A DNA stretch of 64,000 nt from an uncultured Planctomycetales bacterium (lineage in GTDB: Bacteria; Omnitrophota; Gorgyraeia; Zapsychrales; GWA2-47-8). This document shows, one piece after another, positions 4,667 to 61,849 of the stretch. The translations under genes were made by a program, and so were the position numbers. Where the stretch lies: the NCBI GenBank assembly GCA_964359575.1, contig CAYHTV010000001.1, forward strand, positions 5,547 to 69,546, given 5' to 3'. Positions within the stretch are counted from its first letter, which is position 1. The number at the start of each line of letters is the position of its first letter. The notes beneath the pieces are model-generated. The model had not been told where the DNA came from, ran no database searches, and saw only the letters and a program-made list of their open reading frames with translations.

Positions 4667-4750
4667 TTTATTTTGATTTTACATCTTTATTTGTTACAAT
4701 AAAAACATTGTTCAAAATAAAAGTCTTCAATACGAAATTTATCAAGATAA

Positions 4751-20523: not shown

Positions 20524-20549
20524 AACTTTTTGGAATTTTTAATTTTTTT

Positions 20550-20682
20550 AGGAAAGCCATACAGCAAAGAAGTTACGACGCACTTACTTTTCTAAAAATT
20601 ATTAGAGGAAGTAAGTGCTGTACTGATTTCCTCTAAAATATTTAAGGGAAAATCAGTACGAACGAAGTGAGGAGTTTTCTTG
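20550..20682 (+). repeat. Structured repeat family 2, copy A (composite: AGGAAAGCCATACAGCAAAGAAG... two inserted hairpins ...GAACGAAGTGAGGAGTTTTCTTG)
   Basis: Shares its 5' module with copy D and the 3' module CGAACGAAGTGAGGAGTTTTCTTG with copies B, C and D; the inserted hairpins have CTAAAA(A)TATT loops. Confidence 0.7.
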
Positions 20683-25263: not shown

Positions 25264-25266
25264 ATC

Positions 25267-43998: not shown

Positions 43999-44327
43999 AA
44001 AGTCAAGACAGAGAGACGCTTCGCGACACCACAATTTTACCTTTTGCGTTTTAAATTTTAAGTTCATTATAAAAAGGAGCTAAGATGGACTTGCCAAATC
44101 CTTTACAAAAATCAAAAACTCAATACCAGGAAACAATCAACGTGATTCAGTCGGATGCCTCGCCCGTTGGGATTGATCCGCAATACACCCATGCGATTAT
44201 CATCGAATTCTTAAAGCAAATTTCTGCCCGCTTGGATCGTCTCGAAACAATCATGAGGTGCGATAAAAAATGAGATGAAAAGGGTTGTTTTGTATTGACA
44301 ATCAAGACCATTTTGCCATAATAAAAA

Positions 44328-44951
44328 TTGTCGAGAAATTTAATTTTTTCAAAAAAAAGGAGAACTTATATGGGAAGCGAAAAAAATCAATGGATGTTGT
44401 GGGTGATTGTCATTGGGGTGGTTATTATCACGTTGATCGCTTTTAATTATCACGGTGATAAATCAGACTCAATCCCTTTAAGTGAGATTTTCCCAGAAGA
44501 AATGGGGACGCAGGAAGGACAAAATATTGAGTATGAGTTTGTCGACAGTAAACCGGCGCAAACCCAAGCCGCAGCGCCTGCGCTAGCGGGTGGTAAGCTG
44601 GTTCTCGCTAAGCCAGCCGTTTCTAAAGCTGTCGCTGTTCCCGCAGCGCCGGCAAAGACTTCCCCAGCTGTTCCCGCGGCCGCGCCAGTAACTGTTTCTC
44701 CGTCCACGAGGGGAGACTACTCAATCCAGGTGTTGTCCTCCAAAGATAAGGCCGCCACGGAGAAATCTTTGGAAAGAATAAAAGCCAAAGGGCATGCCGC
44801 TTATCTGGTAACCCGGGATCTCGGGGAGAAGGGAATTTGGTACCGTGTGAACATCGGTCCGTTTGAAACGAAACAGCAGGCTGAGGCGTATTTGCCAAAA
44901 ATTCAAGCGGATTATAAAAGTAGTTTTGTAATTAGTGGAAAGAAAGAATAG
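44328..44951 (+). CDS. SPOR domain-containing protein
   Basis: N-terminal TM anchor, Ala/Pro-rich linker, and a C-terminal SPOR fold (YSIQVLSSKDKAATE...YRVNIGPFETKQQAEA). Confidence 0.75.
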   Translation: MSRNLIFSKKRRTYMGSEKNQWMLWVIVIGVVIITLIAFNYHGDKSDSIPLSEIFPEEMGTQEGQNIEYEFVDSKPAQTQAAAPALAGGKLVLAKPAVSKAVAVPAAPAKTSPAVPAAAPVTVSPSTRGDYSIQVLSSKDKAATEKSLERIKAKGHAAYLVTRDLGEKGIWYRVNIGPFETKQQAEAYLPKIQADYKSSFVISGKKE

Positions 44952-44974
44952 TCTAAAAATTTACGGAGTGGACC

Positions 44975-45274
44975 ATGCGAAGTTTTTTCATTTTAGTCTT
45001 AGTAGCATTGGTAGCATTGGTAGCTGGCTGCACAACGGCTCAAAAAGGAGCGGCGGTTGGCGCGCTGGGGGGTGGGGCGTTGGGTGGCATTATCGGCCAT
45101 CAGTCCGGCCACGGCGGGACAGGAGCGGCGATTGGGGCCGCTGCCGGTGCGATAACCGGGGTAATTGTCGCTGAGAAAATGGCTGATAAATTCTGTCCGG
45201 TTTGCGGCGCAACTTATACAAATAGCACAGAGTTTTGCCCCAAGGATGGGACGGAATTAAAAGAGAAGCAATAA
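44975..45274 (+). CDS. Glycine-zipper lipoprotein with C-terminal CPxCG...CP zinc-ribbon-like motif
   Basis: LVAGC lipobox, a GxxxG-rich zipper, and C-terminal CPVCGATYTNSTEFCPKDG. Confidence 0.55.
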   Translation: MRSFFILVLVALVALVAGCTTAQKGAAVGALGGGALGGIIGHQSGHGGTGAAIGAAAGAITGVIVAEKMADKFCPVCGATYTNSTEFCPKDGTELKEKQ

Positions 45275-45328
45275 GAAAAAAAGGTTAATGTCATTATGTA
45301 CCGCGCAAACTAGAAATAAAACCTCATT

Positions 45329-45874
45329 ATGCACCAAAATATCAAAATACTATTAACCTGTTCTATTTTGATTCATGGCGGGATCAACTTGTTGGCGCCG
45401 ATATACGCTATTTTTATAAGAAATATTGGCGGAACAATCTTTGATGCCGGCGCGACCATTGGATGTTATGCTTTCTTAAAGGGAATATTTTATTTTCTTT
45501 TTCGAAAGCTTAAGGAAAGTAGATTCAGCCGGAAATGTATGATCTCTGCCGGTTATTTTTTGTTCTTTGTTGGCTATATTTTTTATTTATTTGCTTCTAA
45601 TATTTTTCATGTGGTAGCGATCCAGGCATTGTTGGCCTGTGCCGAGGTGATTATAAATCCTTCATGGAGTGCGGTTATTGCCAACGCTCTTGATCAAGGA
45701 AAGGAGCGGACGATTTACTCTAATTTTTACGGATACAGATCTCTCTTTGAAGGAATCGCGGCTATTTTGGGCGGGATCGTTGCTTCCAGTTTAGGTTTTT
45801 ATTTTCTTTTTAGTTTAATGGCCGCTTTTGCTTTAACCGCCAGTATCTTGGCATTATTTCTGACGGACAATTAG
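45329..45874 (+). CDS. Hypothetical membrane protein (MFS-half-like)
   Basis: About 6 TM segments; no motif. Confidence 0.3.
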   Translation: MHQNIKILLTCSILIHGGINLLAPIYAIFIRNIGGTIFDAGATIGCYAFLKGIFYFLFRKLKESRFSRKCMISAGYFLFFVGYIFYLFASNIFHVVAIQALLACAEVIINPSWSAVIANALDQGKERTIYSNFYGYRSLFEGIAAILGGIVASSLGFYFLFSLMAAFALTASILALFLTDN

Positions 45875-46249
45875 GGGTACAGAGCAGTATTGAACTGGTT
45901 GAGAAAAAAGGGCCGCAATTTTTTCCTATGAATAAAATCCGCATTATTCTGCGTTGGCTGCACATTATCATCGGCCTCATCCTTTTGTGCTATATTTACT
46001 CGCCTTTTTCCAAGTACGCGGCCTTCCAAATTTTTGTTAAATTTATTGCCATTCCTATCGTTGTGATAAGCGGTCTGTGGATTTGGAAATTTACTGCCTT
46101 CAATAAATTTTTACGGGCCCGCTGGAGCATTCTTGCGGGATATAGAGGGAACGAAATTTCTTGAAGATTTATTGAAGATTTATGTTGCCAAAGCAGTTTG
46201 CAGTGTGTATAATCCCGCCTGTCAATATGGTTGAAAGGAAGCCCCCAAT

Positions 46250-47893
46250 ATGAACCCAGTTGTCATGTCATCGCCGCTTGAAAAATTTTTGCACAGTATT
46301 GGGATTAAACAGTGGAAAAATCTTTTCTATGCGCTATCCCATGATGAACTTTTTAGCCACGAAACTGATCCGTCCTTAGAAGGTTATGAGCGGGCAATTG
46401 TCACCACGACCGGCGCGGTCGCCGTTGATACCGGCAAATTTACCGGACGTTCCCCCAAAGACAAATATATCGTAAAAGAGCCAAGCTCGCAGGATAGTGT
46501 ATGGTGGTCTGATGACCCTTGCGCGGGTTCTGACAACAAATCACTTTCCCCAGAAGCCTGGGCGCATCTTAAAAGTATTTCTCTCCAGCAACTCAACGGC
46601 AAAAAATTATATGTGATGGATGGTTTTTGCGGGACGAATCCGCAAACCCGCATTTGTGTCCGGCTGGTGACCGAGGTTGCCTGGATGGCGCATTTTTTTA
46701 AAAATATGTTCATTCGGCCTACCGCTGATGAATTGAAAAATTTTAAGCCTGACTGGACCATCCTTAATGCCTGTAAGACGTCGTGCGTTGATTTTGCCAA
46801 GTATGGATTGCGATCGGAAGTTTTCGTCGCCTTTCACATTAAGGAGCGCATGACAGTCATTGGCGGCACCTGGTACGGCGGTGAAATCAAAAAAGGCATT
46901 TTTTCGATCATGAATTATTTTTTGCCGCTGCAAGGCATCGGCGCGTTTCATTGTTCGGCGAATATGGGTGAAAGGGGTGACACGGCTTTATTTTTTGGTT
47001 TATCCGGGACCGGTAAGACTTCGCTTTCGACCGACCCCAAGCGGGCGCTGATTGGCGACGACGAGCATGGCTGGGACAATGACGGTGTGTTTAATTTTGA
47101 GGGCGGATGCTATGCCAAATGCATCGGGTTAACCCGCGAGCGGGAACCGGAAATCTTTGATGCGATCCGCCGGGATGCTTTATTAGAGAACGTTGATATG
47201 AATGCGAACGGTCAAGTAGATTTTGCCTCAAAGAAAAAAACGGAAAACACCCGCGTTTCGTATCCACTGGATCACATTCAAAATATTGTTAAGCCCATTT
47301 CAAAGGGCGGCCATCCAAAATATATTATTTTTCTTACGTGCGATGCCTTTGGAATTTTGCCGCATGTTTCTAAGCTCACCAAAGAGCAGGCGATGTACCA
47401 TTATTTGAGCGGTTATACAGCGAAAGTGGCGGGAACAGAGTTGGGCGTCACTGAGCCAAAGGCCGCGTTCTCCTCGTGTTTTGGCCAGGCGTTTTTGCTG
47501 GTTCATCCAACCCAATACGCGGATATTTTAGGTAAGAAAATGGATGAGCACGGCTCTCAGGCGTATCTTGTCAATACCGGCTGGATTGGTGGAAAATACG
47601 GTGTGGGCAAACGTATGCCATTGGCGGAAAACCGCCGGTCCATTGACGCGATCTTTAGCGGCGCGTTTGCTAAAGCGGAATTTGAAACATTGCCGATTTT
47701 TAATTTGCAGTTCCCCAGGGCACTCCCCGGTGTCTCCCCCGAGACACTGCATCCTCGCAACAGCTGGGCCAATAAAGAAGAATACGATCAGACGGCCCGC
47801 AAACTCGCCCAAATGTTCAGCGACAACTTCAAAAAATTTGAGACAACCGAGAAAGGCCGCGCCCTCGCCGCTGTGGCCGGGCCGAAGTTGTAA
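46250..47893 (+). CDS. pckA: Phosphoenolpyruvate carboxykinase (ATP)
   Basis: [12 protein letters not shown], kinase-1a [11 protein letters not shown], and IGDDEHGW motifs; 547 aa. Confidence 0.95.
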
Positions 47894-48042
47894 AATCCAA
47901 GTTTTGCTTAATCATTTCTTTAGTTTTAAATAATTAGGGTAATTAGGGTAATTTGAGCCGTAATCAAAATTTGAATTTACCAATCCCTCTTTTGTGCTAA
48001 AATAAAATTCAAATTATTCACCCTTTTCGTTCATTTCCGGAG

Positions 48043-48696
48043 ATGATTATGCCCAAAAAAATTCAACCCCCAAAAATTTCTAAGAAAAGTTTTACGCTTA
48101 TTTTGATTTTGACTGCGGCAGCCGCTGTTTTAGGCGTGCGCTGGTATTTGGAGTCGTCCCGCTCTGCTGTTCAGACAACGCAGACACGCGCCAAAGGCCA
48201 TCCTAACGCGCCGATTCAAATCAGCGAGTACATTGATTTTCAATGCTCGGCCTGCGCCGCCGGGGCCAAACAATTAAAAGAGTATCTCGCGCAATATCCG
48301 GATAAGATTCATCTGGAAATGCGCTATTATCCGCTCGTCAACATGCACCCGCATGCCTTGCCGGCGGCCCGTTATGCCCAATGCGCCGCAAAACAGGGAA
48401 AATTTTGGTCGCTGCACGATCTTTTGATTGAACGGCAGAATGAATGGAAAGTTTTAACCAATGCCGACTCGGCTTTCTTACAGATGGCCAAGGAAGTACC
48501 ATTGGATATGAAATCTCTGGAAGTCTGCCTGCAGGATGAGAATATTGTCAAAACGATTTTTGAAGAAAAAGATCAAGGCAGTTCTTTGGGCGTTCAGTCA
48601 ACCCCGACGTATTTTATTAATGGAAAAATGGTGGTGGGGGTTAAATCGTTAACCGATATGTTATTGCCGCTTTTGCAAGATGATACAAAAAAATAA
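48043..48696 (+). CDS. DsbA-family thioredoxin-fold protein (CxxC)
   Basis: Signal anchor; DFQCSACA CxxC active site; thioredoxin-like fold. Confidence 0.75.
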   Translation: MIMPKKIQPPKISKKSFTLILILTAAAAVLGVRWYLESSRSAVQTTQTRAKGHPNAPIQISEYIDFQCSACAAGAKQLKEYLAQYPDKIHLEMRYYPLVNMHPHALPAARYAQCAAKQGKFWSLHDLLIERQNEWKVLTNADSAFLQMAKEVPLDMKSLEVCLQDENIVKTIFEEKDQGSSLGVQSTPTYFINGKMVVGVKSLTDMLLPLLQDDTKK

Positions 48697-49135
48697 TATT
48701 GTGGTCATTGCGCGTATTCTTCTCGGGACGATTTTTATTGTCTCGGGAATCGAAAAACTCCTGAGTCCCTACCAGAATTTTCTTTATGTCATCCAAAATT
48801 ATGAGGTGATTGGCCCGCCGTGGGATGAAATAACCGCGAAATTTTTTCCCTGGCTGGAATTTCTTTCAGGTTTATTTTGCTTTTTGGGTTTATGGTTACG
48901 GCAGGCGCTGACCGGCGCCTTAGTCCTTTTGACAGTTTTTATCGGCGTTGTGGGGCAGGCGCTCATCCGGCAGTTACCCATTGTGGAATGCGGGTGTTTT
49001 GGCAGCCTTTTTTCAATTCCGCTGGAGGCGGTGCTGGTAATGGACAGCAGTCTTTGGCTGTTATCCTCATGGCTGCTTTCCAGGATACCCCAGGCTTCCC
49101 GCTTCAGTCTCGATGAATATTTTGGAACCAAATAA
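48680..49135 (+). CDS. MauE/DoxX-family membrane protein
   Basis: Four TM helices and a CGCFG motif typical of the MauE family; overlaps the DsbA-like gene by 17 nt. Confidence 0.7.
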   Translation: MIQKNNIVVIARILLGTIFIVSGIEKLLSPYQNFLYVIQNYEVIGPPWDEITAKFFPWLEFLSGLFCFLGLWLRQALTGALVLLTVFIGVVGQALIRQLPIVECGCFGSLFSIPLEAVLVMDSSLWLLSSWLLSRIPQASRFSLDEYFGTK

Positions 49136-49140
49136 TATTT

Positions 49141-50739
49141 TTGCCAAGACTATGCTCGCGAGGGTCTATGAAAAAATTTTTAATCATTATGTTAGGACTG
49201 GCAGCGATGATTCCATTCGGTTTTGCAAATTCAGAAATTAAAGAACCCAATGTCAGCGGGAAATTTTATGATGCCGACCCCAAGCGTCTGGCTGCTGCGG
49301 TTGATACTTTTATTAACCGCGCCGAGGTTGCGGACTTGGATAAAAATATCGCGATGATTATTGCTCCGCACGCTGGGTATATTTATTCCGGCGCGGTTGC
49401 GGGATACAGTTTTAAGGCAGCGCGCCGCGGGCAATATAAGACGATCGTTATTATCGCGCCGAGTCATTTTTATGGATTTGACGGAATTTCGATTTGGCCG
49501 GAAGGAGGGTTTCAAACACCGCTGGGAATCGCGCCGGTCGATCACGATTTTACGCAGAAGCTCATCGGCCGTAATGAAAAATTTTATTTTGACGCCTTGG
49601 CGTTTGAGCAAGAGCATGCGCTGGAGGTCGAAATCCCATTTTTGCAAAGAACCTTCAGTGATTTTAAGATTGTGCCGGTCGTGATGGGACAGCCGACATT
49701 TCAGACATGCGAGGCCTTTGCCGCGGCGTTAAAAGAAAACATTGGCGAGCGAGATGATGTCTTGGTTGTGGTCAGCACAGATTTGTCGCATTATCACGAT
49801 GATACCTTTGCCCGCGCAATGGATCAGCGGACGTTAGCCATGGTCAAGGCAGGCGACGCGAAGGAATTGTGGAAACAGTGCCGCCTGGGAACAATGGAGA
49901 TGTGCGGCTTTGTGCCGGTCACCACGGCATTATTGTACGCCAAGCTGCAAGGTTTGCGGGATGTGGAAATCGCGCGTTATGCCAATTCTGGGGATGTGAC
50001 CGGTGATCGGCACAGCGTGGTGGGGTATGCGTCGGTTATTTTTTACAGCATAGGAAAGTATAAAACTTTCCTAGCTGCTAAAAACTCCTTTCCTATGCAG
50101 CAAAGAAGATGCGACGAACGAAGTGAGGAGTTTTCTTGTGCGCCGGCCGCTGGAGACCAAGAGGGGCTGCTCAGTCTGGAACAAAAGAAAAAATTATTAT
50201 CGATCGCGCGTAAATCCATTGAAAACCACGTGCGCACTGGCACAAAATTGGGGATAGAGGAATCTGATCCTCGTCTTTTCAAAGAGGAAGGGGCTTTTGT
50301 GACGATTCATCGGCAGGGACGATTGCGTGGGTGCATCGGGAATATTATTGGGCAGGGTCCATTGTATCTTACTGTGCGCGACATGGCGATTACCGCGGCT
50401 TCGCGTGATCCGCGATTTCAACCCGTGAGCGAGGAAGAATTGAAAGATATTACGGTCGAGGTCTCGGTTCTCTCGGAGCCCAAACCCGTCAAGGACATGG
50501 ACGAAATTGTCATGGGTGTGCATGGCGTTATTGTGAGCCGAGGAGCGCATCATGGAGTTTTTTTGCCGCAGGTAGCGACCGAAACCGGCTGGAGCCAAGA
50601 AGAGTTCCTCGCACAGCTGTGTGAACAAAAAGCCGGCCTGCCGCGGGACTGCTGGAAAGACCATCAAACGCGTTTAGAAATTTTCACCGCCCAAGTTTTT
50701 GCCGAGAAAGATATAAATTATGGGCCTTTGTACAACTAA
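49141..50739 (+). CDS. Memo-like (AmmeMemoRadiSam system protein B) fused in frame to an AMMECR1 domain (protein A); real start probably the ATG at 49168
   Basis: N-terminal half has IIAPHAGYIYSG...APSHFY...DLSHYHDD (MEMO1/extradiol-dioxygenase-like); C-terminal half has GAFVTIHRQGRLRGCIG...HGVIVSRGAHHGVFLPQV (AMMECR1); the 94-bp repeat family 2 copy B is translated in frame between them; the stop codon lies inside MITE copy 7. Confidence 0.7.
   Translation: MPRLCSRGSMKKFLIIMLGLAAMIPFGFANSEIKEPNVSGKFYDADPKRLAAAVDTFINRAEVADLDKNIAMIIAPHAGYIYSGAVAGYSFKAARRGQYKTIVIIAPSHFYGFDGISIWPEGGFQTPLGIAPVDHDFTQKLIGRNEKFYFDALAFEQEHALEVEIPFLQRTFSDFKIVPVVMGQPTFQTCEAFAAALKENIGERDDVLVVVSTDLSHYHDDTFARAMDQRTLAMVKAGDAKELWKQCRLGTMEMCGFVPVTTALLYAKLQGLRDVEIARYANSGDVTGDRHSVVGYASVIFYSIGKYKTFLAAKNSFPMQQRRCDERSEEFSCAPAAGDQEGLLSLEQKKKLLSIARKSIENHVRTGTKLGIEESDPRLFKEEGAFVTIHRQGRLRGCIGNIIGQGPLYLTVRDMAITAASRDPRFQPVSEEELKDITVEVSVLSEPKPVKDMDEIVMGVHGVIVSRGAHHGVFLPQVATETGWSQEEFLAQLCEQKAGLPRDCWKDHQTRLEIFTAQVFAEKDINYGPLYN
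50045..50138 (+). repeat. Structured repeat family 2, copy B (inside CDS, in frame)
   Basis: ACAGCATAGGAAAGTATAAAACTTTCCTAGCTGCTAAAAACTCC...CGAACGAAGTGAGGAGTTTTCTTG; translated as SIGKYKTFLAAKNSFPMQQRRCDERSEEFS; contains an internal ATG and a GAGGAG-7nt-GTG arrangement. Confidence 0.75.
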
Positions 50740-50823
50740 AGAAAAAAATTTGAATTTATCATTGAGGAGACAAAGGCCAATATTGACTACCTCAATTCTT
50801 TTGGTTCTACAAAGGTCAATAAA
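50719..50823 (-). mobile_element. MITE-like repeat family 1, copy 7 (reverse orientation)
   Basis: Its first 21 nt encode the last 6 codons and the stop (YGPLYN*) of the Memo-AMMECR1 ORF. Confidence 0.8.
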
Positions 50824-50853
50824 ATCAAAAATTGAAATTTAAAAATCAAAATT

Positions 50854-51324
50854 TTGAAACGCGATACCATTATCTCTATCTTTGTTGTCCTCTGGCTTTT
50901 GGTTTTTAACTATGAGTCTATTCACCGTTATTATTTGGAGCCGTGGCTGAAGCGCCCGCTGCCAAAACTGAAGCTGCTTTTTCCGCCAGTGGGCTGGATT
51001 ATGTTTTATGATGTGGGTGATGAATACAGTTGCGCGGAGATTTATGGTGTCAACGCGGACGGGATTCAGCAAATCGATCCGCATGAAATTTTAGCCACCA
51101 GGACATTTGGGTTTGATAATATTCACCGCAATGTTCTTTCCATCGTTTTTGCCGACAGTATGCAGTCGCCCGTGTGCCGTTTCTTGGAGCACAAGTTCCC
51201 GGAATTTGAGAATTTTTTGATTACCGCGGTTCATTATCCCTCGGTGACCCAAACGCCGCATAAACGATTGCAGCGGGTGATGTATCAGTGTCAAGATAAG
51301 GAAGAAGTAAAAACTAAAAACTAA
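50854..51324 (+). CDS. Hypothetical protein upstream of the HTTM gene
   Basis: N-terminal TM helix; no motif. Confidence 0.35.
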   Translation: MKRDTIISIFVVLWLLVFNYESIHRYYLEPWLKRPLPKLKLLFPPVGWIMFYDVGDEYSCAEIYGVNADGIQQIDPHEILATRTFGFDNIHRNVLSIVFADSMQSPVCRFLEHKFPEFENFLITAVHYPSVTQTPHKRLQRVMYQCQDKEEVKTKN

Positions 51325-51393
51325 AAAGTCAAAAGTAAGACAGATCGCGAAGCGATGCCACAGTTTTTAGTTTTAATTTTTGAGTTTTAACTT

Positions 51394-52686
51394 ATGCGAT
51401 ATATTTCAAAAATCTGGCATCGTTTATTCCTCATTGAGCGCCCCTCGCTCAGCTTATCCTTGTTTCGCGTCGCTGTGGCAATCACGGTTGGCGCGCATGT
51501 CATTCCAACACTGTTTAATCTGCCGGACAACTATTATTCGACGGCCCTCAAAACGTATAATTTTGATTTTTTTACTCCGCGGATGATTGAATGCGTCCAG
51601 CGCAGCCCGGATCAGGTGGTTTTGTTTTTTGTTATCTTCTTTTATGTTACCTGGCTCTTCTTTTTCATTGGCCTTTTTAGCCAGATCAGCTGCATTTTCA
51701 TGACCTTGGCATGTTATTATTTTTATGCGCTCAACTCCCTGCATGTGGGTACACTTTCGTGGGATATCCTGCTGGTGACGCTTTTTTTAATGTGCTTAAC
51801 GCCGTATCACGGCGATTATTTCTCGGTTGATGCCCTGAGGAGGGGAGACCCGGAAAGTTATAAAAGGAAACGGCCGTTTTTTATCCAGCGTCTTTTACAA
51901 ATCCAAATTGCCCTGACATTTTTTTATACTGCGCTTTATAAAATCACAGGCGCCGGCAATTGGCTTAAGGATAATCCCATCCATTATTTGATGAATTATC
52001 CGCCAGCCGGCGTGACCAAATGGTTTCTGTTGCGGGATTTCTTTAGGGATAAGCCGGAGTTGTGTTATGCGACAGGTCTTTTGATTGTGGCGATTGAAAT
52101 CTCCATGCCGGTTTTGCTGTTTCTTAGGCGAGCACGATTATCAGCGATTTACTTAGGGTGCTTTTTCCATCTCACTTTAATTCTCACGCTGGATGTGCCG
52201 GCCATATTCTTTTTTCTGTTTCCACCCCAGCTTTTTTTATTTATTAATCCTGATCATATCGTCCGTTGGATTGAGCAAAAACGTTGCGTGAATGCACAAA
52301 CGCCGCAGAGCCAGCTCATCTACGATGGGCATTGCGGATTCTGCCAAAAAAGCGTACAGCAATTGCGCGTGATGGATTTGTTCAACGCGGTTAAAATGGT
52401 GGATTTTCAAAGCCATCCGCATCTGGAGCAATTGCATCCGCAGCTGACTCAAGAGCACTGCGCCAGCCAGCTGCATTTGCGGGAGCCCGATGGAACGTTA
52501 TACGGCGGGTTTGTTGTTTTTAAGCGGTTGTGTTTCGTCATGCCGATGCTGTATCCGCTCATTCTGCTATTTTATTTTCCCGGTGCCGGAATTGTTGGCC
52601 CATGGGTTTACCGCTGGGTTGCAAAAAACCGCTATCTTTTTCATTTTAATAAAATGTGTAAGGGTAATGCCTGTTTTCGTTATTGA
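51394..52686 (+). CDS. HTTM domain (vitamin K gamma-carboxylase-like) membrane protein fused to a DCC-family thiol-disulfide oxidoreductase domain
   Basis: N-terminal multi-TM HTTM-like region; C-terminal LIYDGHCGFCQKSVQ (CxxC of the DCC/DUF393 family). Confidence 0.7.
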   Translation: MRYISKIWHRLFLIERPSLSLSLFRVAVAITVGAHVIPTLFNLPDNYYSTALKTYNFDFFTPRMIECVQRSPDQVVLFFVIFFYVTWLFFFIGLFSQISCIFMTLACYYFYALNSLHVGTLSWDILLVTLFLMCLTPYHGDYFSVDALRRGDPESYKRKRPFFIQRLLQIQIALTFFYTALYKITGAGNWLKDNPIHYLMNYPPAGVTKWFLLRDFFRDKPELCYATGLLIVAIEISMPVLLFLRRARLSAIYLGCFFHLTLILTLDVPAIFFFLFPPQLFLFINPDHIVRWIEQKRCVNAQTPQSQLIYDGHCGFCQKSVQQLRVMDLFNAVKMVDFQSHPHLEQLHPQLTQEHCASQLHLREPDGTLYGGFVVFKRLCFVMPMLYPLILLFYFPGAGIVGPWVYRWVAKNRYLFHFNKMCKGNACFRY

Positions 52687-52695
52687 TTTTTTTTT

Positions 52696-52789
52696 ACAGC
52701 ATAGGAAAGTATAAAACTTTCCTAGCTGCTAAAAACTCCTCTCCTATGCAGCAAAGAAGTTACGACGAACGAAGTGAGGAGTTTTCTTG
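52696..52789 (+). repeat. Structured repeat family 2, copy C
   Basis: Near-identical to copy B; intergenic. Confidence 0.75.
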
Positions 52790-52846
52790 TTAATAATAAA
52801 AGCGGTGTGGTAATATAGCGATGGATTTAAAAATAAGGGGCTGTCC

Positions 52847-53314
52847 ATGCAACTTCCAATTATTATGACGATAATATTTTTTTGTTTAAACTCCGCTGCT
52901 TCGGCCGATGAGATATCAGAGAGAACACTGAAAGAATTTGAGCAAGCCTACCGCAGAGAAAAGACGCAGCAGACGGAAAAACAAAAATTGCTTAAAAGTC
53001 AAAAGAATTTTGAGGCACAAAATAAGAAACGGTTCGATGAGCAATACCAACAGCGCATGAAAAAAATGGCGCAAGAACGGCAAGGGCAATTAGGAGAGCG
53101 GTTTAAGGATCGGCAAAAAAATATTCGTCAAGAACGCGCCAAAATTAAGAGAGAAATGACCGAGGCCGTGGACCCGATGTACAAAGAGGCGCTGCAGGCC
53201 TACAAAGCCAAAGATTATTCCAGGGCGCAAGCGATATTCGCTGAAATTGAGCAGCTGTTGCCTGGTTATAAACAAACCCAAGAGTATTTAGCCCGGAGGG
53301 AGTCGCAGAGGTGA
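52847..53314 (+). CDS. Hypothetical secreted coiled-coil protein (K/E/Q-rich)
   Basis: Signal peptide followed by a charged helical sequence. Confidence 0.35.
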   Translation: MQLPIIMTIIFFCLNSAASADEISERTLKEFEQAYRREKTQQTEKQKLLKSQKNFEAQNKKRFDEQYQQRMKKMAQERQGQLGERFKDRQKNIRQERAKIKREMTEAVDPMYKEALQAYKAKDYSRAQAIFAEIEQLLPGYKQTQEYLARRESQR

Positions 53315-53315
53315 A

Positions 53316-53660
53316 ATGATGAGCCGTAAAAATTTTTTAATCATGCTTTTTATTTTGGAATTTTCTGGCGCGGCCTGGGCGGTCCCGCCATCGAAAATTG
53401 AACTGAGCTATGATCCGGAAAAAAAGAATTTGCACATCGAAGTGGACCACGTGACGCGGAAAAACCGCAAGCATTATATCCGCTATATTAATGTTTATCA
53501 AAACGATGCGGAAGTCAAATCCTTTCATTATGTTGTGCAGGAGCAATCGTCCAGCGTCGCGGAGGATTTGTTTTTAGAAGCGAACAAAGCCGACGTGGTC
53601 CGTGTCAAAGCCCAGTGCACGGAATCCGGCCCTAAAGAGGAAGCATTGGTCATTCCTTAG
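53316..53660 (+). CDS. Hypothetical small secreted protein
   Basis: Signal peptide; no motif. Confidence 0.35.
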
Positions 53661-55792
53661 TGAAATATCAATCTCCCAATAAACTCATCCAAGAAAAGAG
53701 TCCCTATCTTCTCCAGCATGCCCATAATCCGGTGGATTGGTATCCCTGGGGAAAGGAAGCCTTTGCTAAAGCAAAAAAAGAAAATAAACCGGTATTCCTT
53801 TCCATCGGCTATTCAACCTGCCATTGGTGCCATGTGATGGCGCACGAATCTTTTGAGGATAAAGAAATCGCTAATTTGCTAAATGAATATTTTGTACCCA
53901 TTAAAGTGGATCGGGAAGAGCGCCCTGATTTGGATAATATTTATATGACCGCGGTGACGGCCTTGACGGGAAGCGGAGGCTGGCCATTGTCGGTTTTTCT
54001 CACTCCTGATAAAAAGCCTTTTTTCGGAGGGACTTATTTTCCTCCGCAAGCCCGCTGGGGCGCGGTAGGATTTAAGGATGTGCTTCTTTCTATTCATAGC
54101 AGCTGGCAGACCCAACACGCAGAGATTCTGAAATCCGGTCAATCGATCACGCAAGCCTTGCAAGAACGATCTTCGGCCCGGCAGGGAGAAAAAATTGATT
54201 TGGATGTTCAACTGCTGCGCGGCGGCTATCAGGAGTTGGCTGCCAATTATGATGCCCGTTTCGGCGGATTTGGGCAGGCGCCCAAATTTCCGATGGGGCA
54301 CAGTTTGTCTTTTTTGCTGCGGTATTGGAAACGCTCTGGCGAGCCTCAGGCCTTGGCCATGGTCGAAAAAACCCTGACGGCCATGGCGCAGGGCGGGATG
54401 TACGATCAGCTAGGCGGCGGTTTTCATCGGTATTCGACGGATCAGATTTGGCAAGTTCCCCATTTTGAAAAAATGTTGTACGACCAGGCGATTTTGGCGC
54501 GGGCGTATTTAGAAAGTTATCAATCTACGGGTCAGGAATTTTATGCGCGCATCGCCCGTGAGACTTTGGATTATGTCCTGCGGGATATGCAGTCACCGGA
54601 GGGGGGATTTTTTTCCGCACAGGACGCCGACAGCCTTGAGTCATCCACCGGGAAAGAAAGCGGAGAAAAAAAAGAGGGGGCCTTTTATATCTGGGATGCG
54701 GCTGAAATCAACACTGTTCTGGATGCCCAAGAGGCGGAAATTTTTAACCATTACTTTGGGATTGAAAAAAACGGCAATGCCCAGTTGGATCCCCATGGCG
54801 AATTCACCGGAAAAAATATTCTTTTTGTCGCTCATGCGCCTGAAGAAAGCGCGCCGAAATTTCATAAAACGCCGTCCGACATGGAAAAAGTCATCCAGCA
54901 GGCCAAGCAAAAATTATCCACCGTCCGGACAAAGCGGCCGCGTCCGCATCTTGATGATAAAATTTTGGTTGATTGGAACGGCTTAATGATTTCGAGCCTG
55001 GCCTTTGCTTCTTCGGTCCTGGATGAGCCGCGCTACCGGCAGGCGGCCCAGCGAGCGGCAGATTTTATTCTAAAAAATCTTGTCAATTCTCAGAGACGTT
55101 TGCTGCACCGGTTTCGCGATGGGGAGGCGGCGATTTTGGGGACGATCGAAGACTATGCCTTTTTTATTTCTGGCCTCATTGAGCTTTATGAGGCGACATT
55201 TGAGGTGAAGTATTTTCAGGAAGCCAGGCGCCTGGCCGAGGAGATGCTGCATCTCTTTTGGGATGAAGAGTACGGCGGGTTCTTTTTTACCGCGGCGGAC
55301 AGCGAAGACTTACTCTTTCGGCAAAAGGAAGTTTATGACGGGGCGATCCCTTCGGGAAATTCGGTGGCGGCGTTGGATCTTCTGCGTTTGGCCCGGATGA
55401 GTGGGGATAAAACTCTCGCTGATAAGGCTGAGGTGCTTTTACAATTTTTTGGGATGGAAATCCTTAAGCGGCCCAGCGCCTACACGCAGCTGTTGATAGC
55501 TTTAAATTTTGCTTTGGGTCCGACGCGGGAGATTGTGCTCGCCGGCCCCAACACGGAAGATCCGCGGGTGAGGGATATGTTGAAAATCATTAGAGCATTT
55601 TTTATGCCGAACGCTGTTATATTACTTCGGCCTAGTGATAAGCAAAAGCTAACGGAGCTCGTTGAACTGTCGCCTTTTGTGGAAAATCAAGCCCCCTTAA
55701 ACGGCCAGCCAACCGCCTATGTCTGTCAAAATTATGTCTGTGAGCTGCCTACCTCAGCGAGCGAAAAACTCAAAGAGTTTTTATCCCGTTAG
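53660..55792 (+). CDS. Thioredoxin-domain protein of the DUF255/YyaL family (thioredoxin fold plus six-hairpin glycosidase-like domain)
   Basis: [22 protein letters not shown]...[15 protein letters not shown] signature; 710 aa. Confidence 0.9.
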
Positions 55793-55813
55793 AGAACTGC
55801 GTTCTCTAACGGG
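55785..55813 (+). promoter_or_regulatory. Perfect 13-bp stem hairpin overlapping the stop codon of the DUF255 gene, followed by tandem TAACGGGATTGC x2
   Basis: CCCGTTAGAGAAC-TGC-GTTCTCTAACGGG; no T-run follows; possibly a terminator or a protein-binding site. Confidence 0.4.
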
Positions 55814-55842
55814 ATTGCTAACGGGATTGCTGGACTTTGCAA

Positions 55843-55871
55843 TTGACAAAGCCTATGGCCGCTCTTAAAAT
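55843..55871 (+). promoter_or_regulatory. Sigma-70-type promoter upstream of asmA (TTGACA-17 nt-TAAAAT)
   Basis: -35 at 55843-55848 and -10 at 55866-55871. Confidence 0.5.
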
Positions 55872-55907
55872 AACGGGGGTTTGCGAAAAGTATATATAAG
55901 GAAATCC

Positions 55908-57770
55908 ATGAAAAGTCTTAAAATTGCAGTAACGATTATTTTTAGTCTTTTGGCGGTACTCTTGGCGGCCGTGTTCTTTTTTCTCAAGACGGTGGATATC
56001 AATAATTTCAAATCCCAGATCATTGCCCAATTGGAGGCGGCCGTGGGGCGGGACGTATCAATTCAGAACATGGCCTTTTCGCTGTCTTTTCAAAAAGGTA
56101 TTATTTTGAATGTCGAGGGGCTAACGATGGCCAATGATCCTGGGGAAGTTGAAAAGAATTTTCTTGAAGTGGAACGCATTGGCGTGGAAGTGGATTTTAT
56201 GGCGTTGTTGCGCGAACGGAAGATTTCCGTCAAAAGTGTGCAGGTCCATTCCCCTAAGATTGTGATTATTCGCTCAGAGGCAAATGTCTTGAATGTCCAG
56301 ACATTAGGCAATGCGTCTGCGGCTAAAGCAGTAGCAGCCGCGAATAATGTTCCTGTGCCATCTCCTTCACCGGTACCCCTAAGTGACATTTCCACTAAAA
56401 CCATTAACCTCGACACCTTGCCGGCCTTGCTCGTTAAGTCCATGGCCCTGGATAACGGAACTTTGGTTTATATTGATCGAGCTATAAAACCAGAGATGTC
56501 GATTGTTGTTTCAAAGATTGATGTAGAAGTGGCAAATTTTTCGCTTAAGGACAAATTCCATTTTTCTGTGGCAGGCGCGATTTTGGGAAAACAGCAAAAC
56601 GTACATATAGAAGGTCAAGCGCAATTGGATTTAATAAATTCGCAGGCCCGTTTGGAGAGGACAAAAATAGCCGTGGATTTATCGCAGCTGCTGCGCGATG
56701 AGCTCATGCAGATAGGGCCGATGCTGGATAGTCTCGAACTGGTCGGGCAGTGGAGCGGCCTGCTGGAGGCGGATTTAAATCAAATGGTCGCTGGAGCGCA
56801 AGGGATTATGGCGTTGTCTTTGGAAGGTCAGCTTAAAGAGGGAAGGGCGAGCGTCAATGTTTTAGCCAAGCCGTTAGAAAATATTCATGCTGTTTTTAGC
56901 GCGACCGAAGCGGATTTTACAATTAAAGATTATTCGCTCAATATCGGCACGGGGAAAATTTTTGGAGAAGCGAAGTTGAGCGATTATCTTGAAGCGGCGA
57001 ATTCCAGCCTCACCATCAATTTAGAGGACATTAAGATTGAAGAAGTGCATGATGCCGAGACGCTGCCGGTGAAAGCGCAAGGGAATATTTTTGGCCAGTT
57101 TAAAATTCAGGCGCGAGGATTGGATCCAAAAGTATTTTTACAAACCTTGACCGCCGATGGCGCAGCGGAAGTCCGCGAGGGGAAAATTGTTGATATCAAC
57201 GTGTTGAGCTCGGTGTTGGATAAACTTTCCGTTGTGCCGCCTTTGGCCGGTATTAAAGATAAAATTCAGGCGGGCCTGCCGGAGAAGTATCGCGGCGTTT
57301 TAGAGCAAAGGGATACCAATTTCCAAAAAATTCAATGTGCGGTTAATGTGAAAAATGAGACTGCCAGCCTTACCCGCGTCAATATTCAATCTGATGGCTT
57401 TGGAATGGCGGCCAACGGCACGTGTGATTTTAAACAAATTCTGCATCTGGAATCAGCGTTTGCGATAGCGCAGGATCTCTCGGCTGCTATGGGGACGGCA
57501 ATTCCGGAATTGCAGTTGTTATTTGATCAAGCCGGACAAATTTATATTCCCATGACGACCTACGATGGGCCGGCGGCCAAAATGAAGGTCTTCCCGGATC
57601 CGGTTTATTTAGTGAAGCGCGTCATTGCCAATAGGGGACAAGAGGAGCTGCAAAAATTGATCAACAAGGCGTTAGGGACAGAGGAATCGTCCGAAGAACC
57701 TTCTTCCGGCGAAGAGAAACCCTCGGAACAAAAAATCATTAGCGATATCTTACAGTCGATCTTCCAATAA
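55908..57770 (+). CDS. asmA: AsmA family protein
   Basis: The track ORF starts at 55881; the ATG at 55908 is preferred because it follows an RBS and the predicted promoter; N-terminal TM anchor and a long beta-rich periplasmic domain typical of AsmA. Confidence 0.65.
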   Translation: MKSLKIAVTIIFSLLAVLLAAVFFFLKTVDINNFKSQIIAQLEAAVGRDVSIQNMAFSLSFQKGIILNVEGLTMANDPGEVEKNFLEVERIGVEVDFMALLRERKISVKSVQVHSPKIVIIRSEANVLNVQTLGNASAAKAVAAANNVPVPSPSPVPLSDISTKTINLDTLPALLVKSMALDNGTLVYIDRAIKPEMSIVVSKIDVEVANFSLKDKFHFSVAGAILGKQQNVHIEGQAQLDLINSQARLERTKIAVDLSQLLRDELMQIGPMLDSLELVGQWSGLLEADLNQMVAGAQGIMALSLEGQLKEGRASVNVLAKPLENIHAVFSATEADFTIKDYSLNIGTGKIFGEAKLSDYLEAANSSLTINLEDIKIEEVHDAETLPVKAQGNIFGQFKIQARGLDPKVFLQTLTADGAAEVREGKIVDINVLSSVLDKLSVVPPLAGIKDKIQAGLPEKYRGVLEQRDTNFQKIQCAVNVKNETASLTRVNIQSDGFGMAANGTCDFKQILHLESAFAIAQDLSAAMGTAIPELQLLFDQAGQIYIPMTTYDGPAAKMKVFPDPVYLVKRVIANRGQEELQKLINKALGTEESSEEPSSGEEKPSEQKIISDILQSIFQ

Positions 57771-60903: not shown

Positions 60904-61038
60904 TTATGGGCCTTTGTACAACCATTAGCAATAATTTTAAGAGAACAAAGCGACCTGCCTGATGAGCTCGTCTTATGACGAGCTCATCAGGCAGGAATAT
61001 TGACTACCTTCTGCTTTTAGTTAAGCAAAGGTCAATAA
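60904..61038 (-). mobile_element. MITE-like repeat family 1, copy 8 (diverged, with an inserted 40-bp perfect palindrome)
   Basis: Termini TATGGGCCTTTGTACAAC and AATATTGACTACC...CAAAGGTCAATAA are conserved; the interior carries CCTGCCTGATGAGCTCGTC-TTAT-GACGAGCTCATCAGGCAGG. Confidence 0.65.
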
Positions 61039-61188
61039 GAATATCCAGAGGAAATTAGGACTATCCCTATTTCCTCTGACGATATTAAGGAAAATAGGGG
61101 TTGAAATCCCGCAGGAAAACAATTATCATAAATGCCTAAATTAGCCATCAGCTATCGGTCGTCAGCCATCAGTAACCAAAAGTTTTTC

Positions 61189-61359
61189 ACAGCATAGAAA
61201 AGTATAAAACTTTCCTAGTACTAGCTGCTAAAAACTCCTCTCCTATGCAGGCCGACTTTCCTAAAGAATTAGAAGAAGTCGGCACAGTAATGGCTTCCTC
61301 TAAAATTTTAGGAAAGCCATACAGCAAAGAAGGTACGAACGAAGTGAGGAGTTTTCTTG
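61189..61359 (+). repeat. Structured repeat family 2, copy D (composite with inserted hairpins)
   Basis: 5' module ACAGCATAGAAAAGTATAAAACTTTCCT...CCTATGCAG, then two hairpins (GCCGACTT...AAGTCGGC; ATGGCTTCCT...AGGAAAGCCAT), then CAAAGAAGGTACGAACGAAGTGAGGAGTTTTCTTG. Confidence 0.7.
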
Positions 61360-61399
61360 ACTGAACGCTAATGGCTGGAAGCTAAAATCGGAGGTTTAT

Positions 61400-61849
61400 A
61401 TGCTGCAAGACAAAATCGATCATGATTATAAAAAAGCGATGCTCGCCAGAGATCAATTGAAATCTTCCACGTTAAGTTTTTTAAGAGCGCAATTGAAGAA
61501 TGTGATCATTGATAAAAAAATGGATAAACTACCGGATGAAGAAGTAGTGGCGGTCATTAAAAAGCAGGTCAAGCAGCGGCAGGATTCGATTGAGCAATTT
61601 GCCAAAGGAGGACGCGCGGACTTGGTGGAAAAAGAAAAGGCAGAATGGAATATCCTTGTGAGCTATCTGCCGGCTGAGATGCCTGATGGAGAATTGAAAA
61701 GTGCTGTCGAGGGTGCGATTAGGGATGCGCAGGCGGCAGGCATGAAAGACATGGGAAAGGTTATGAAGGTTTTGCTGCCGCAGGTGGCGGGAAAGGCGGA
61801 CGGAAAACGGGTGAGCGATCTGGTCAAGGAGTTATTATCTAAGATGTAG
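61400..61849 (+). CDS. yqeY: GatB/YqeY domain-containing protein
   Basis: AMLARDQLKSSTLSFLRAQLKN...LVSYLP motif pattern; 149 aa. Confidence 0.85.
   Translation: MLQDKIDHDYKKAMLARDQLKSSTLSFLRAQLKNVIIDKKMDKLPDEEVVAVIKKQVKQRQDSIEQFAKGGRADLVEKEKAEWNILVSYLPAEMPDGELKSAVEGAIRDAQAAGMKDMGKVMKVLLPQVAGKADGKRVSDLVKELLSKM

What the first reader, a model, noticed from the sequence alone, without database searches (positions are those of the whole stretch)
49141..50823. Memo-like (AmrB) and AMMECR1 (AmrA) domains joined in one ORF by an in-frame repeat element, with the stop donated by a MITE
The N-terminal half is a MEMO1-family protein and the C-terminal half an AMMECR1 domain; these are normally separate AmmeMemoRadiSam-system genes. 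The 94 bp joining them (50045-50138) is a copy of repeat family 2, also found intergenically at 52696 and 61189, translated as SIGKYKTFLAAKNSFPMQQRRCDERSEEFS without a stop. The repeat also contains an in-frame ATG and a GAGGAG-7nt-GTG arrangement. The AMMECR1 half could therefore be expressed separately from a repeat-borne RBS, so the repeat may act as a portable RBS/start module. The final 6 codons and the stop of the ORF come from MITE copy 7. No cognate AmrS radical SAM gene is adjacent; the only radical SAM in the window is a B12-binding type at 4751.
Basis: partly seen in the sequence, partly recalled or inferred. Interest (0 to 1): 0.7.

Follow-up and report, generated by a model that had tools for sequence, protein, structure and literature searches.

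The report
Selfish repeats inside a fused gene
An Omnitrophota gene that has always encoded a fused Memo-AMMECR1 protein has picked up two small mobile repeats, one read through in frame in the flexible linker and one in its stop codon, so the repeats decorate the fusion and did not create it.

Summary
The sequence observation holds. One ORF (49168-50739, 523 aa from the ATG) encodes Memo/AmrB plus AMMECR1/AmrA. A 93-nt repeat copy (50045-50137) is read through in frame between the domains. A ~100-bp MITE supplies the last six codons and the stop.

The main interpretation fails. All 120 best homologues, the named ones Omnitrophota, carry the same fusion. Four syntenic loci (closest protein 71% identical) lack both insertions. 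The repeat landed in a pre-existing, variable, disordered linker. The MITE landed in the TA of the ancestral TAA stop.

The repeat's GAGGAG-TTG/GTG starts are out of frame with AMMECR1, so it cannot act here as a separate start module. Elsewhere its GAGGAG does lie 7 nt before a map GTG and 11 nt before a glycosyltransferase ATG.

The repeat belongs to a modular hairpin family found in several Omnitrophota genomes. It has no terminal inverted repeats and no target duplication longer than 2 nt. Only one of its six frames is open. That frame is read through in roughly ten unrelated host proteins, three confirmed against insertion-free homologues. This matches the behaviour of Rickettsia palindromic elements. 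It is a new member of a known kind, of moderate interest.

The parts
49168..50739 (+). CDS of the Memo(AmrB)-AMMECR1(AmrA) fusion protein, 523 aa from the ATG (an upstream in-frame TTG at 49141 would give 532 aa)
   Evidence: ORF list; Pfam and NCBIfam hits; 120 full-length fused homologues; identical protein in an independent assembly
49168..49230 (+). N-terminal signal-peptide-like segment (MKKFLIIMLGLAAMIPFGFA)
   Evidence: Read from the sequence. A hydrophobic N-terminal extension is shared by the homologues ahead of the conserved IKxPNVSGQFY motif. AlphaFold gives a helix at residues 2-13 followed by low confidence at 14-19. Export itself is inferred.
49243..50037 (+). Memo / AmrB domain (residues 26-290)
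   Evidence: PF01875 2.6e-61; TIGR04336 3.3e-82; pLDDT about 90
50045..50137 (+). It lies inside the inter-domain linker. Boundaries are good to within 1-2 nt.
   Evidence: Repeat detection. The segment is missing from all 17 aligned homologues and from the syntenic orthologue DNA. pLDDT is below 50 over residues 298-331.
50200..50700 (+). AMMECR1 / AmrA domain (residues 345-511)
   Evidence: PF01871 5.4e-58; TIGR04335 6.5e-57
50719..50821 (+). MITE copy. The core is 50721-50819, flanked by TA (50719-20) and TA (50820-21). It is inserted in the TA of the ancestral TAA stop. It encodes YGPLYN and the new TAA stop at 50737-50739.
   Evidence: Alignment of 7 copies plus a variant with flanks. The inverted ends are TATGGGCCTTTGTACAAC and GTTCTACAAAGGTCAATA. 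Removing the core and one TA restores GAT ATA AAT TAA, a stop at the same position as in the orthologue L001 and the other homologues.
52696..52788 (+). Intergenic short-form copy of the same repeat. It starts 10 nt after the stop of the DCC1-like gene.
61189..61359 (+). Long form of the repeat: 5' module, an extra hairpin module, then the 3' module. Intergenic, upstream of the yqeY-like gene.
20546..20682 (+). Partial copy (internal hairpin modules plus the 3' module, no 5' module) between the dnaG-like and rpoD-like genes
60905..61038 (+). Variant MITE with the same ends as the 107-bp MITE but a different palindromic interior

Best explanation
The gene is the normal Omnitrophota form of AmrB-AmrA: one polypeptide with an N-terminal signal-peptide-like segment, a Memo domain, a short variable linker and an AMMECR1 domain.

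Two unrelated small non-coding mobile repeats have since inserted into it and are tolerated.

1. A 93-nt short form of a modular hairpin repeat inserted into the linker. It lies in the one orientation and frame (1 of 6) that has no stop codon, and its length is a multiple of three. It therefore adds about 30 disordered residues and leaves both domains in frame.
2. A TA-targeting MITE inserted into the TA of the TAA stop codon. Translation now runs six codons into the MITE to a TAA that the MITE carries.

Shown here: the ancestral fusion, the presence/absence comparisons, the frames, and the disorder of the inserted segments. Inferred: that the 523-aa protein is made and works, and how the repeat moves. 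The mobilisation is probably strand-specific and hairpin-dependent, because the repeat has no terminal inverted repeats, no target duplication longer than 2 nt, and a stem kept by compensatory changes.

The hairpin repeat behaves like Rickettsia palindromic elements. The same open frame is read through in roughly ten unrelated proteins.
For: **The fusion is ancestral.**
- All 120 best hits carry PF01875 and PF01871 at 93-100% coverage.
- The alignment places the extra residues only in the unconserved linker and at the C-terminus. Every invariant column is kept in the window protein.
- The gene order DsbA, MauE/DoxX, fusion, small membrane protein, HTTM/DCC1 is conserved in L001, L021, L022 and L025, all without the repeat in the fusion gene.
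- DNA alignment with L001 shows both insertions as clean gaps.

**The sequence is real.** An independent assembly is identical.

**The MITE.** Seven copies with TA at both ends; the empty-site reconstruction gives a TAA at the orthologous stop position.

**The repeat family.**
- The exact 25-mer occurs in 3 other Omnitrophota MAGs, and a 47-mer in JGI metagenomes. That gives 17 distinct copies, mostly intergenic.
- Only one of six frames is open.
- A clean filled/empty pair exists in a Wzy_C gene: exactly 31 extra aa against 6 homologues, with GTGTT[93 nt]TTGTGGG against GTGTTTTGCGGG.
- A second pair uses the window's own 53316-53660 gene as the empty site for a 59-aa long-form insertion in P0257.
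- An exhaustive peptide search finds the element peptide inside NYN_YacP, HAD, TPR membrane and other proteins.
- The 5' stem shows compensatory change, GCATAGG/CCTATGC to GTGTAGG/CCTACAC. In the peptides this appears as I..M against V..T.

**Structure.** AlphaFold gives pLDDT about 90 for both domains and below 50 for residues 298-331 and 518-523.
Against: - No expression or protein data, so read-through of the 523-aa product is inferred from the intact frame.
- The closest insertion-free orthologue is only 71% identical, so the exact pre-insertion linker sequence is unknown. The remaining native linker (about 14 aa) is shorter than in most homologues, so a small deletion may have accompanied the insertion.
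- No transposase or other mobilising gene was identified for either repeat.
- Repeat boundaries are ambiguous by 1-2 nt.
- The conservation of the 3' half of the repeat is partly forced by the exact-match patterns used to find copies.
- The taxonomic origin of most host proteins found by the peptide search was not checked.
Confidence: 0.85

Rival explanations
1. One reading: two originally separate genes, amrB and amrA, were welded into one ORF by the in-frame repeat.
For: The repeat lies exactly between the two domains and has no stop in this frame. AmrA and AmrB are separate genes in the systems the TIGR04335/TIGR04336 models were defined on (established knowledge of those models). One protein in the database (P0255, Tex_N + repeat + the C-terminus of P0258) shows that the repeat can sit at a junction of unrelated coding sequences.
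Against: All 120 nearest homologues are fused without the repeat. Four syntenic loci have the fusion and no repeat in it. Residues on both sides of the repeat align with the linker ends of those homologues.
Confidence: 0.02
2. The repeat acts here as an internal ribosome-binding and start module, so the AMMECR1 half is also made as a separate protein.
For: The repeat ends in GAGGAG-TTTTC-TTG. In L003 the GTG start of map lies 7 nt after GAGGAG. In L012 the ATG of a GT2 gene lies 11 nt after it. In L007 the repeat's TTG is in frame with the C-terminal part of a HAD gene. 15 of 18 copies point the same way as the downstream gene.
Against: In the window copy the TTG (50136) and the GTG (50138) are in the two non-AMMECR1 frames and hit stops after 25 and 39 codons. 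The in-frame ATG at 50095 is preceded by CTCCTTTCCT, with no Shine-Dalgarno. Any copy read through in the open frame has its TTG out of frame. The three intergenic window copies end 40-57 nt before the next start codon. Only about 16 of 43 genes in the window have any SD-like motif.
Confidence: 0.05
3. The read-through is an assembly or sequencing artefact, with a repeat copy misplaced into the gene or an indel hiding a frameshift.
For: Repeats are classic sites of misassembly. Several related contigs end inside copies (L007, P0254, P0123). P0255 looks like a chimera at the repeat.
Against: A second, independently assembled contig from another ENA record carries the same sequence over 12.6 kb with 3 mismatches, none in the gene, since the protein is identical. 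Both flanks of the repeat belong to the same gene by homology and synteny. The same kind of clean in-frame insertion is seen in other genes and genomes.
Confidence: 0.03
4. The insertions have damaged the gene. The ORF is intact by luck, but the protein no longer works or is on its way to decay.
For: Thirty extra residues in a linker and six at the C-terminus could disturb how the domains sit together. The native part of the linker is unusually short.
Against: There are no stops or frameshifts in 523 codons. Every column invariant across the 18 aligned sequences, the window protein among them, is therefore kept in it. Linker length varies naturally among homologues, which range from 468 to 547 aa. 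Both inserted segments are predicted disordered and lie outside the folded domains.
Confidence: 0.1
5. The hairpin repeat has been co-opted. Its RNA structure or peptide has a role in this gene, for example pausing translation between the two domains or during export.
For: The repeat folds more stably than shuffled sequence (z -3.0 to -3.4 on the coding strand). Its stem is kept by compensatory changes.
Against: The same stem is kept in intergenic copies, so the constraint belongs to the element and not to this gene. Every orthologue examined lacks the insertion. The host genes are functionally unrelated.
Confidence: 0.05

Closest known systems
Rickettsia palindromic elements (RPEs)
   Same: Short (about 100-150 bp) hairpin-forming interspersed repeats. 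They are found in intergenic DNA and also inserted in frame in unrelated protein-coding genes, adding a conserved peptide without destroying the host protein (review PMC10969869, read). Here one frame is read through in roughly ten unrelated host proteins. The insertion sits in a disordered region.
   Different: A different phylum, and sequence relationship to RPEs was not tested. This family is modular, with short 91-95-nt forms and long forms up to about 316 nt. Among the 17 DNA copies sampled, only 2 are read through in frame inside genes, and one more interrupts a HAD gene. In Rickettsia nearly half of the copies from the in-frame RPE families lie inside genes.
Pneumococcal BOX elements (boxA, a variable number of boxB, boxC)
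   Same: The same kind of modular build: a constant 5' module, a variable number of internal hairpin modules, and a constant 3' module. Copies cluster with other small repeats in intergenic regions (window 60905-61359; PMC10969869).
   Different: No sequence relationship is known. BOX elements are not noted for in-frame residence in genes. The resemblance is architectural only.
Classical bacterial MITEs with TA target duplication (derivatives of IS630/Tc1-mariner-type elements)
   Same: The ~100-bp element at 50719-50821 has imperfect terminal inverted repeats (14 of 18), TA on both sides, many near-identical copies in both orientations and no coding capacity.
   Different: No parent insertion sequence was found. 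The notable detail here is that the target TA was part of a stop codon, so the element replaces the stop and lengthens the protein by six residues.
AmmeMemoRadiSam system (AmrA, AmrB, AmrS; TIGR04335, TIGR04336, TIGR04337)
   Same: Both halves score well above the curated cut-offs of the AmrB and AmrA models.
   Different: The halves are fused into one protein and preceded by a signal-peptide-like segment. No AmrS radical SAM gene lies nearby in the window or in the four orthologous loci. The neighbours are envelope thiol-redox genes instead (DsbA, MauE/DoxX, HTTM/DCC1, DsbH).
IS200/IS605-derived hairpin elements (PATEs) and REP/RAYT repeats
   Same: No terminal inverted repeats, no target duplication longer than 2 nt, hairpins near both ends, insertion next to a T-rich motif (often TTTTAC), and an orientation bias.
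   Different: No Y1 (HUH) transposase was looked for or found. The left hairpin starts only a few bases from the end. This is a lead from memory, not a tested membership.

Membership tests
AmmeMemoRadiSam system | AmrB (Memo-like) protein matching TIGR04336 | tested here: met
   275.8 bits against a cut-off of 26, residues 25-292; Pfam Memo 2.6e-61
AmmeMemoRadiSam system | AmrA (AMMECR1) protein matching TIGR04335 | tested here: met
   191.7 bits against a cut-off of 99, residues 342-511; Pfam AMMECR1 5.4e-58
AmmeMemoRadiSam system | Cognate AmrS radical SAM gene in the same gene neighbourhood | tested here: not met
   The only CxxxCxxC ORF in the 64 kb is 4751-6340, a B12-binding radical SAM about 44 kb away. 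No Radical_SAM gene lies in the flanks held for L001, L021, L022 and L025, which reach from under 1 kb to 8 kb on a side. An AmrS gene elsewhere in the genome cannot be excluded.
RPE-like in-frame palindromic repeats | Short, non-coding, multi-copy interspersed repeat | tested here: met
   4 copies in the window and 17 distinct copies across the window, three other MAGs and metagenomes
RPE-like in-frame palindromic repeats | Forms stable hairpins | tested here: met
   Folding z-scores of -3.0 to -6.0. Consensus of two stems. Two positions of the 5' stem change on both sides in the L025 subfamily.
RPE-like in-frame palindromic repeats | Inserted in frame in unrelated protein-coding genes, adding a conserved peptide | tested here: met
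   Confirmed against insertion-free homologues for Memo-AMMECR1, Wzy_C and the 114-aa family. The peptide also occurs inside NYN_YacP, HAD, TPR membrane and other proteins.
RPE-like in-frame palindromic repeats | Sequence homology to a Rickettsia RPE family | not tested
   No RPE sequences were compared. The claim is that it behaves like an RPE, not that it descends from one.
MITE (terminal inverted repeats plus target-site duplication) | Terminal inverted repeats (the 107-bp element at 50719-50821) | tested here: met
   TATGGGCCTTTGTACAAC against the reverse complement TATTGACCTTTGTAGAAC, 14 of 18 matching, in all 7 copies
MITE (terminal inverted repeats plus target-site duplication) | Target-site duplication (the 107-bp element) | tested here: met
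   TA flanks all copies. Keeping a single TA restores a TAA stop at the position where the orthologues stop. This is a reconstruction, not an observed empty site in the same species.
MITE (terminal inverted repeats plus target-site duplication) | Terminal inverted repeats and target duplication (the 93-nt hairpin repeat) | tested here: not met
   The ends ACAGCATAGG and GAGTTTTCTT are not inverted repeats. The filled/empty pair L010/L023 allows at most a 2-nt TT duplication. The hairpin repeat is therefore not filed as a classical MITE.
IS200/IS605-type or REP/RAYT hairpin elements | Associated Y1 (HUH) transposase and a fixed target tetra- or pentanucleotide | not tested
   Left flanks are T-rich, often TTTTAC, but variable.

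The most novel reading that the evidence does not exclude
The hairpin repeat may be an undescribed, Omnitrophota-wide class of modular palindromic element that has evolved, independently of Rickettsia RPEs, to live inside genes.
- It keeps one stop-free frame in both short and long forms.
- It maintains its stem by compensatory change.
- It moves without terminal inverted repeats or target duplication, possibly as single-stranded DNA.
- It occasionally donates a Shine-Dalgarno sequence or start to downstream genes.
- It may even have placed hairpin modules into the RNase P RNA gene (window about 24876-25009).
Probability: 0.3. Interest if true: 0.7.

Novelty: new member of a known kind. Interest (0 to 1): 0.45.

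Why it matters
**For annotation.** The Memo-AMMECR1 fusion is the native gene form in this phylum and should not be read as a repeat-made chimera. The odd linker and C-terminal tail are mobile-element scars.

**For mobile-element biology.** Clear cases of small repeats living in frame inside many different proteins are few, and Rickettsia RPEs are the textbook example. A second such family in an uncultivated phylum, with clean filled and empty sites and a stem kept by compensatory changes, gives new material for two questions: how such elements move, and how proteins tolerate or use inserted peptides.

**For the AmrA/AmrB proteins.** The Omnitrophota context (signal peptide, DsbA/DoxX/HTTM-DCC1 neighbours, no radical SAM partner) hints at an envelope role that differs from the three-gene system these proteins are named after.

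Tried and rejected
- **Rfam.** A gathering-threshold search of the whole window and an E-value search over 61100-61420 found no RNA family for the repeat, only weak chance snoRNA/miRNA hits.
- **Promoter and terminator scan** of 47800-53400: counts no higher than in shuffled sequence, and nothing inside either repeat.
- **Word-indexed protein search** with a doubled element peptide. The exhaustive HMMER search replaced it.
- **Viral contig scans.** The repeat 25-mer was absent. The MITE end matched one 17-mer with no other similarity to the MITE, judged to be chance.
- **Covariation in the short-form alignment.** It was uninformative because the copies are nearly identical. The informative compensatory changes came from the diverged L025 subfamily.
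- **Search for a parent insertion sequence or transposase** for either repeat.
- **False positives.** P0248 and P0251 from the peptide search are unrelated or only distantly similar tandem-repeat proteins. They were not counted as hosts.
Full report
**1. What is in the sequence**

The + strand has one ORF from 49141 (TTG) or 49168 (ATG) to the TAA at 50737-50739. From the ATG it is 523 aa.
- Pfam finds Memo at residues 26-290 and AMMECR1 at 345-511.
- NCBIfam finds AmrB (TIGR04336, 276 bits) and AmrA (TIGR04335, 192 bits).
- The finding's end coordinate, 50823, is roughly the end of the MITE, not of the ORF.

- It recurs at 52687-52790 (96% identical over 104 nt), as a long form at 61189-61359, and as a partial copy ending at 20682.
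- This is far beyond chance: a 52-mer with up to 3 mismatches is found twice against 0 expected, and nhmmer E-values reach 5e-30.

The last six codons and the stop lie in a ~107-bp element. It has seven near-identical copies in both orientations and one variant.

An independently assembled ENA contig (L002) matches window 43990-56565 with three mismatches and encodes the identical protein. The read-through is therefore not an artefact of one assembly.

**2. The fusion is old and the repeat is new**

- The 120 best homologues (52-71% identity, 93-100% coverage, 468-547 aa) all contain both domains. Every one that carries a source name is from Omnitrophota, and some are labelled by JGI as "protein B/protein A".
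- In an 18-sequence alignment the window protein has extra residues in only two places: about 30 in the unconserved linker and 6 at the C-terminus. All invariant columns are kept.
- The closest orthologue (P0002, 71% identical, locus L001) sits in the same gene order: PEPCK, then DsbA, MauE/DoxX, the fusion, and a 150-aa protein. Its DNA aligns across both sites with clean gaps where the window has the repeat and the MITE.
- Three further syntenic loci (L021, L022, L025) have the fusion without the repeat.

The repeat did not join two genes. It landed in an existing linker.

**3. The MITE and the stop codon**

All copies share TATGGGCCTTTGTACAAC at one end and GTTCTACAAAGGTCAATA at the other, which are imperfect inverted ends with TA on each side.

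If TA is a target duplication, removing the core (50721-50819) and one TA gives GAT ATA AAT TAA. That protein ends one residue after the conserved EKDI/V motif, as the homologues do (L001 reads GAC GTA AAA TAA). If TA belonged to the element, the ancestral protein would run on for several more codons, unlike any close homologue.

So the MITE most likely hit the TA of the stop codon. Translation now continues through TAT GGG CCT TTG TAC AAC to a TAA inside the MITE.

**4. What the linker repeat is**

*Distribution.* The exact 25-mer at its 3' end occurs in three other Omnitrophota MAGs. A 47-mer occurs in JGI metagenome contigs. With the window this gives 17 distinct copies.

*Architecture.*
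- Short forms are 91-95 nt, counted from CAGCATAGG to the final CTTG.
- Long forms, up to about 316 nt, carry extra hairpin modules at fixed junctions.
- The short form folds into a 5' stem (GCATAGGAAAG/CTTTCCTATGC) around a variable loop, plus a 3' hairpin.
- A diverged subfamily in L025 has GTGTAGG/CCTACAC instead of GCATAGG/CCTATGC. These are two compensatory pair changes.
- The same coupling shows in the translated copies: I..M in at least nine, V..T in at least seven, and two mixed or diverged copies, P0256 and P0252.

*Ends.* There are no terminal inverted repeats. The best filled/empty pair is L010 against L023, in Wzy_C genes 78-83% identical. It shows a net insertion of exactly 93 nt with at most a 2-nt duplication. 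Left flanks are T-rich, often TTTTAC.

*Other tests.* Rfam has no matching family. The repeat was not found in viral contigs.

**5. In-frame residence in genes is a recurring habit of this family**

Only one of the six frames of the short form is stop-free. Both coding copies found at the DNA level are 93 nt long and use that frame.

An exhaustive HMMER search with the 35-aa peptide against 1.84 billion representative proteins returned 15 hits. Together with the earlier hits, the sequences show the element peptide inside these proteins:
- a NYN_YacP protein, which has two insertions
- a HAD hydrolase (long form)
- several membrane and TPR proteins
- a YkgJ-like protein
- the Wzy_C protein
- a homologue of the window's own 114-aa gene (53316-53660)

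For that last case the window gene serves as the empty site. BLASTP aligns residues 6-61 and 62-114 to residues 13-66 and 126-178 of P0257, so the insertion is 59 aa.

One entry, P0255, joins a Tex N-terminal domain to the C-terminus of P0258 at the repeat. This is either recombination between copies or a misassembly.

The overall behaviour matches what is described for Rickettsia palindromic elements (PMC10969869). I found no description of such repeats in Omnitrophota in the paper library.

**6. The "portable RBS/start" idea**

The repeat ends in GAGGAG-TTTTC-TTG. At other loci this is plausibly used:
- In L003 the repeat lies between adk and map, and the map GTG is 7 nt after GAGGAG.
- In L012 a GT2 gene's ATG is 11 nt after it.
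- In L007 the repeat's TTG is in frame with the C-terminal part of a HAD gene.
- 15 of 18 copies point the same way as the next gene.

In the window copy it cannot work.
- The TTG (50136) and the GTG (50138) fall in the two frames that do not encode AMMECR1, and both frames stop soon after.
- This must be so for any copy read through in the open frame.
- The in-frame ATG (50095) follows a pyrimidine-rich stretch.
- The three intergenic window copies end 40-57 nt before the next start.
- Only about 16 of 43 genes in the window have any SD-like motif.

Separate expression of the AMMECR1 half from the repeat is therefore unlikely.

**7. Why the insertions are tolerated**

An AlphaFold model built on the 18-sequence alignment is confident for both domains (10-residue block means mostly 77-98). 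It is very low only at residues 14-19, 298-331 and 518-523. These are the region after the signal-peptide helix, the repeat plus native linker, and the MITE-encoded tail. Linker length already varies among homologues. That the protein is made and is active remains an inference.

**8. Context**

The window has no AmrS gene. The only radical SAM ORF is a B12-binding type at 4751-6340. None lies in the flanks held for the four orthologous loci either.

The fusion instead lies in a conserved cluster with DsbA, MauE/DoxX, a small membrane protein, an HTTM/DCC1 protein and often DsbH. It carries an N-terminal signal-peptide-like segment shared by its homologues.

The domains therefore belong to the AmrA and AmrB families. 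The three-gene system, as defined, is not present here.

**9. Verdict**

The locus is an ancestral fusion gene carrying two tolerated selfish insertions. The more interesting result is the repeat family itself. It is an RPE-like, modular, hairpin-constrained element that lives in frame in many Omnitrophota proteins. That makes it a new member of a known kind.

Noticed in passing
window 48043-55792; loci L001, L021, L022, L025: In Omnitrophota the Memo-AMMECR1 fusion carries an N-terminal signal-peptide-like segment. It sits in a conserved cluster: DsbA, MauE/DoxX, the fusion, a ~150-aa membrane protein, and an HTTM/DCC1-like protein, often with DsbH further on. No radical SAM gene lies in the flanks held for any of these loci. 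This suggests an envelope thiol-redox context, not the classical three-gene AmmeMemoRadiSam system.
   Followed up: partly
window 24788-25264, especially about 24876-25009: The bacterial RNase P RNA gene has 134 nt where the Rfam model has 13. The extra segment folds into nested hairpins (z -4.8) that resemble the internal hairpin modules of the linker repeat family (62% match to 20596-20642). A MITE copy abuts the 3' end of the gene at 25265.
   Followed up: partly
proteins P0255 and P0258: P0255 joins a Tex N-terminal domain to the repeat peptide and then to a C-terminal TPR region identical to that of P0258. This is either recombination between two repeat copies or a metagenome misassembly at the repeat.
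   Followed up: no
L003 (JAFGFL010000055.1), repeat at 4705-4798 on the - strand: A repeat copy lies between adk and map. The adk reading frame runs into the repeat and stops at a TAG inside it. The map GTG start lies 7 nt after the repeat's GAGGAG.
   Followed up: partly
L007 (MHGR01000098.1) 1-400: A long-form repeat sits at the contig start, directly upstream of the C-terminal third of a HAD hydrolase, and its TTG is in frame with that fragment. The gene may be split by the repeat. The upstream half is beyond the contig end.
   Followed up: no
window 60905-61359: The intergenic region upstream of the yqeY-like gene holds a variant MITE (same ends, different palindromic interior) and a long-form hairpin repeat about 150 nt apart. 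This clustering of small repeats resembles what is reported for pneumococcal BOX, RUP and SPRITE elements.
   Followed up: no
protein P0251: A 261-aa protein made of four tandem units (…NSLGKFFDFLKLVNDFPAQTNRCRLPGEGA…) is 45% identical to the repeat peptide. It could be a distant relative of the element in another organism, or chance similarity.
   Followed up: no
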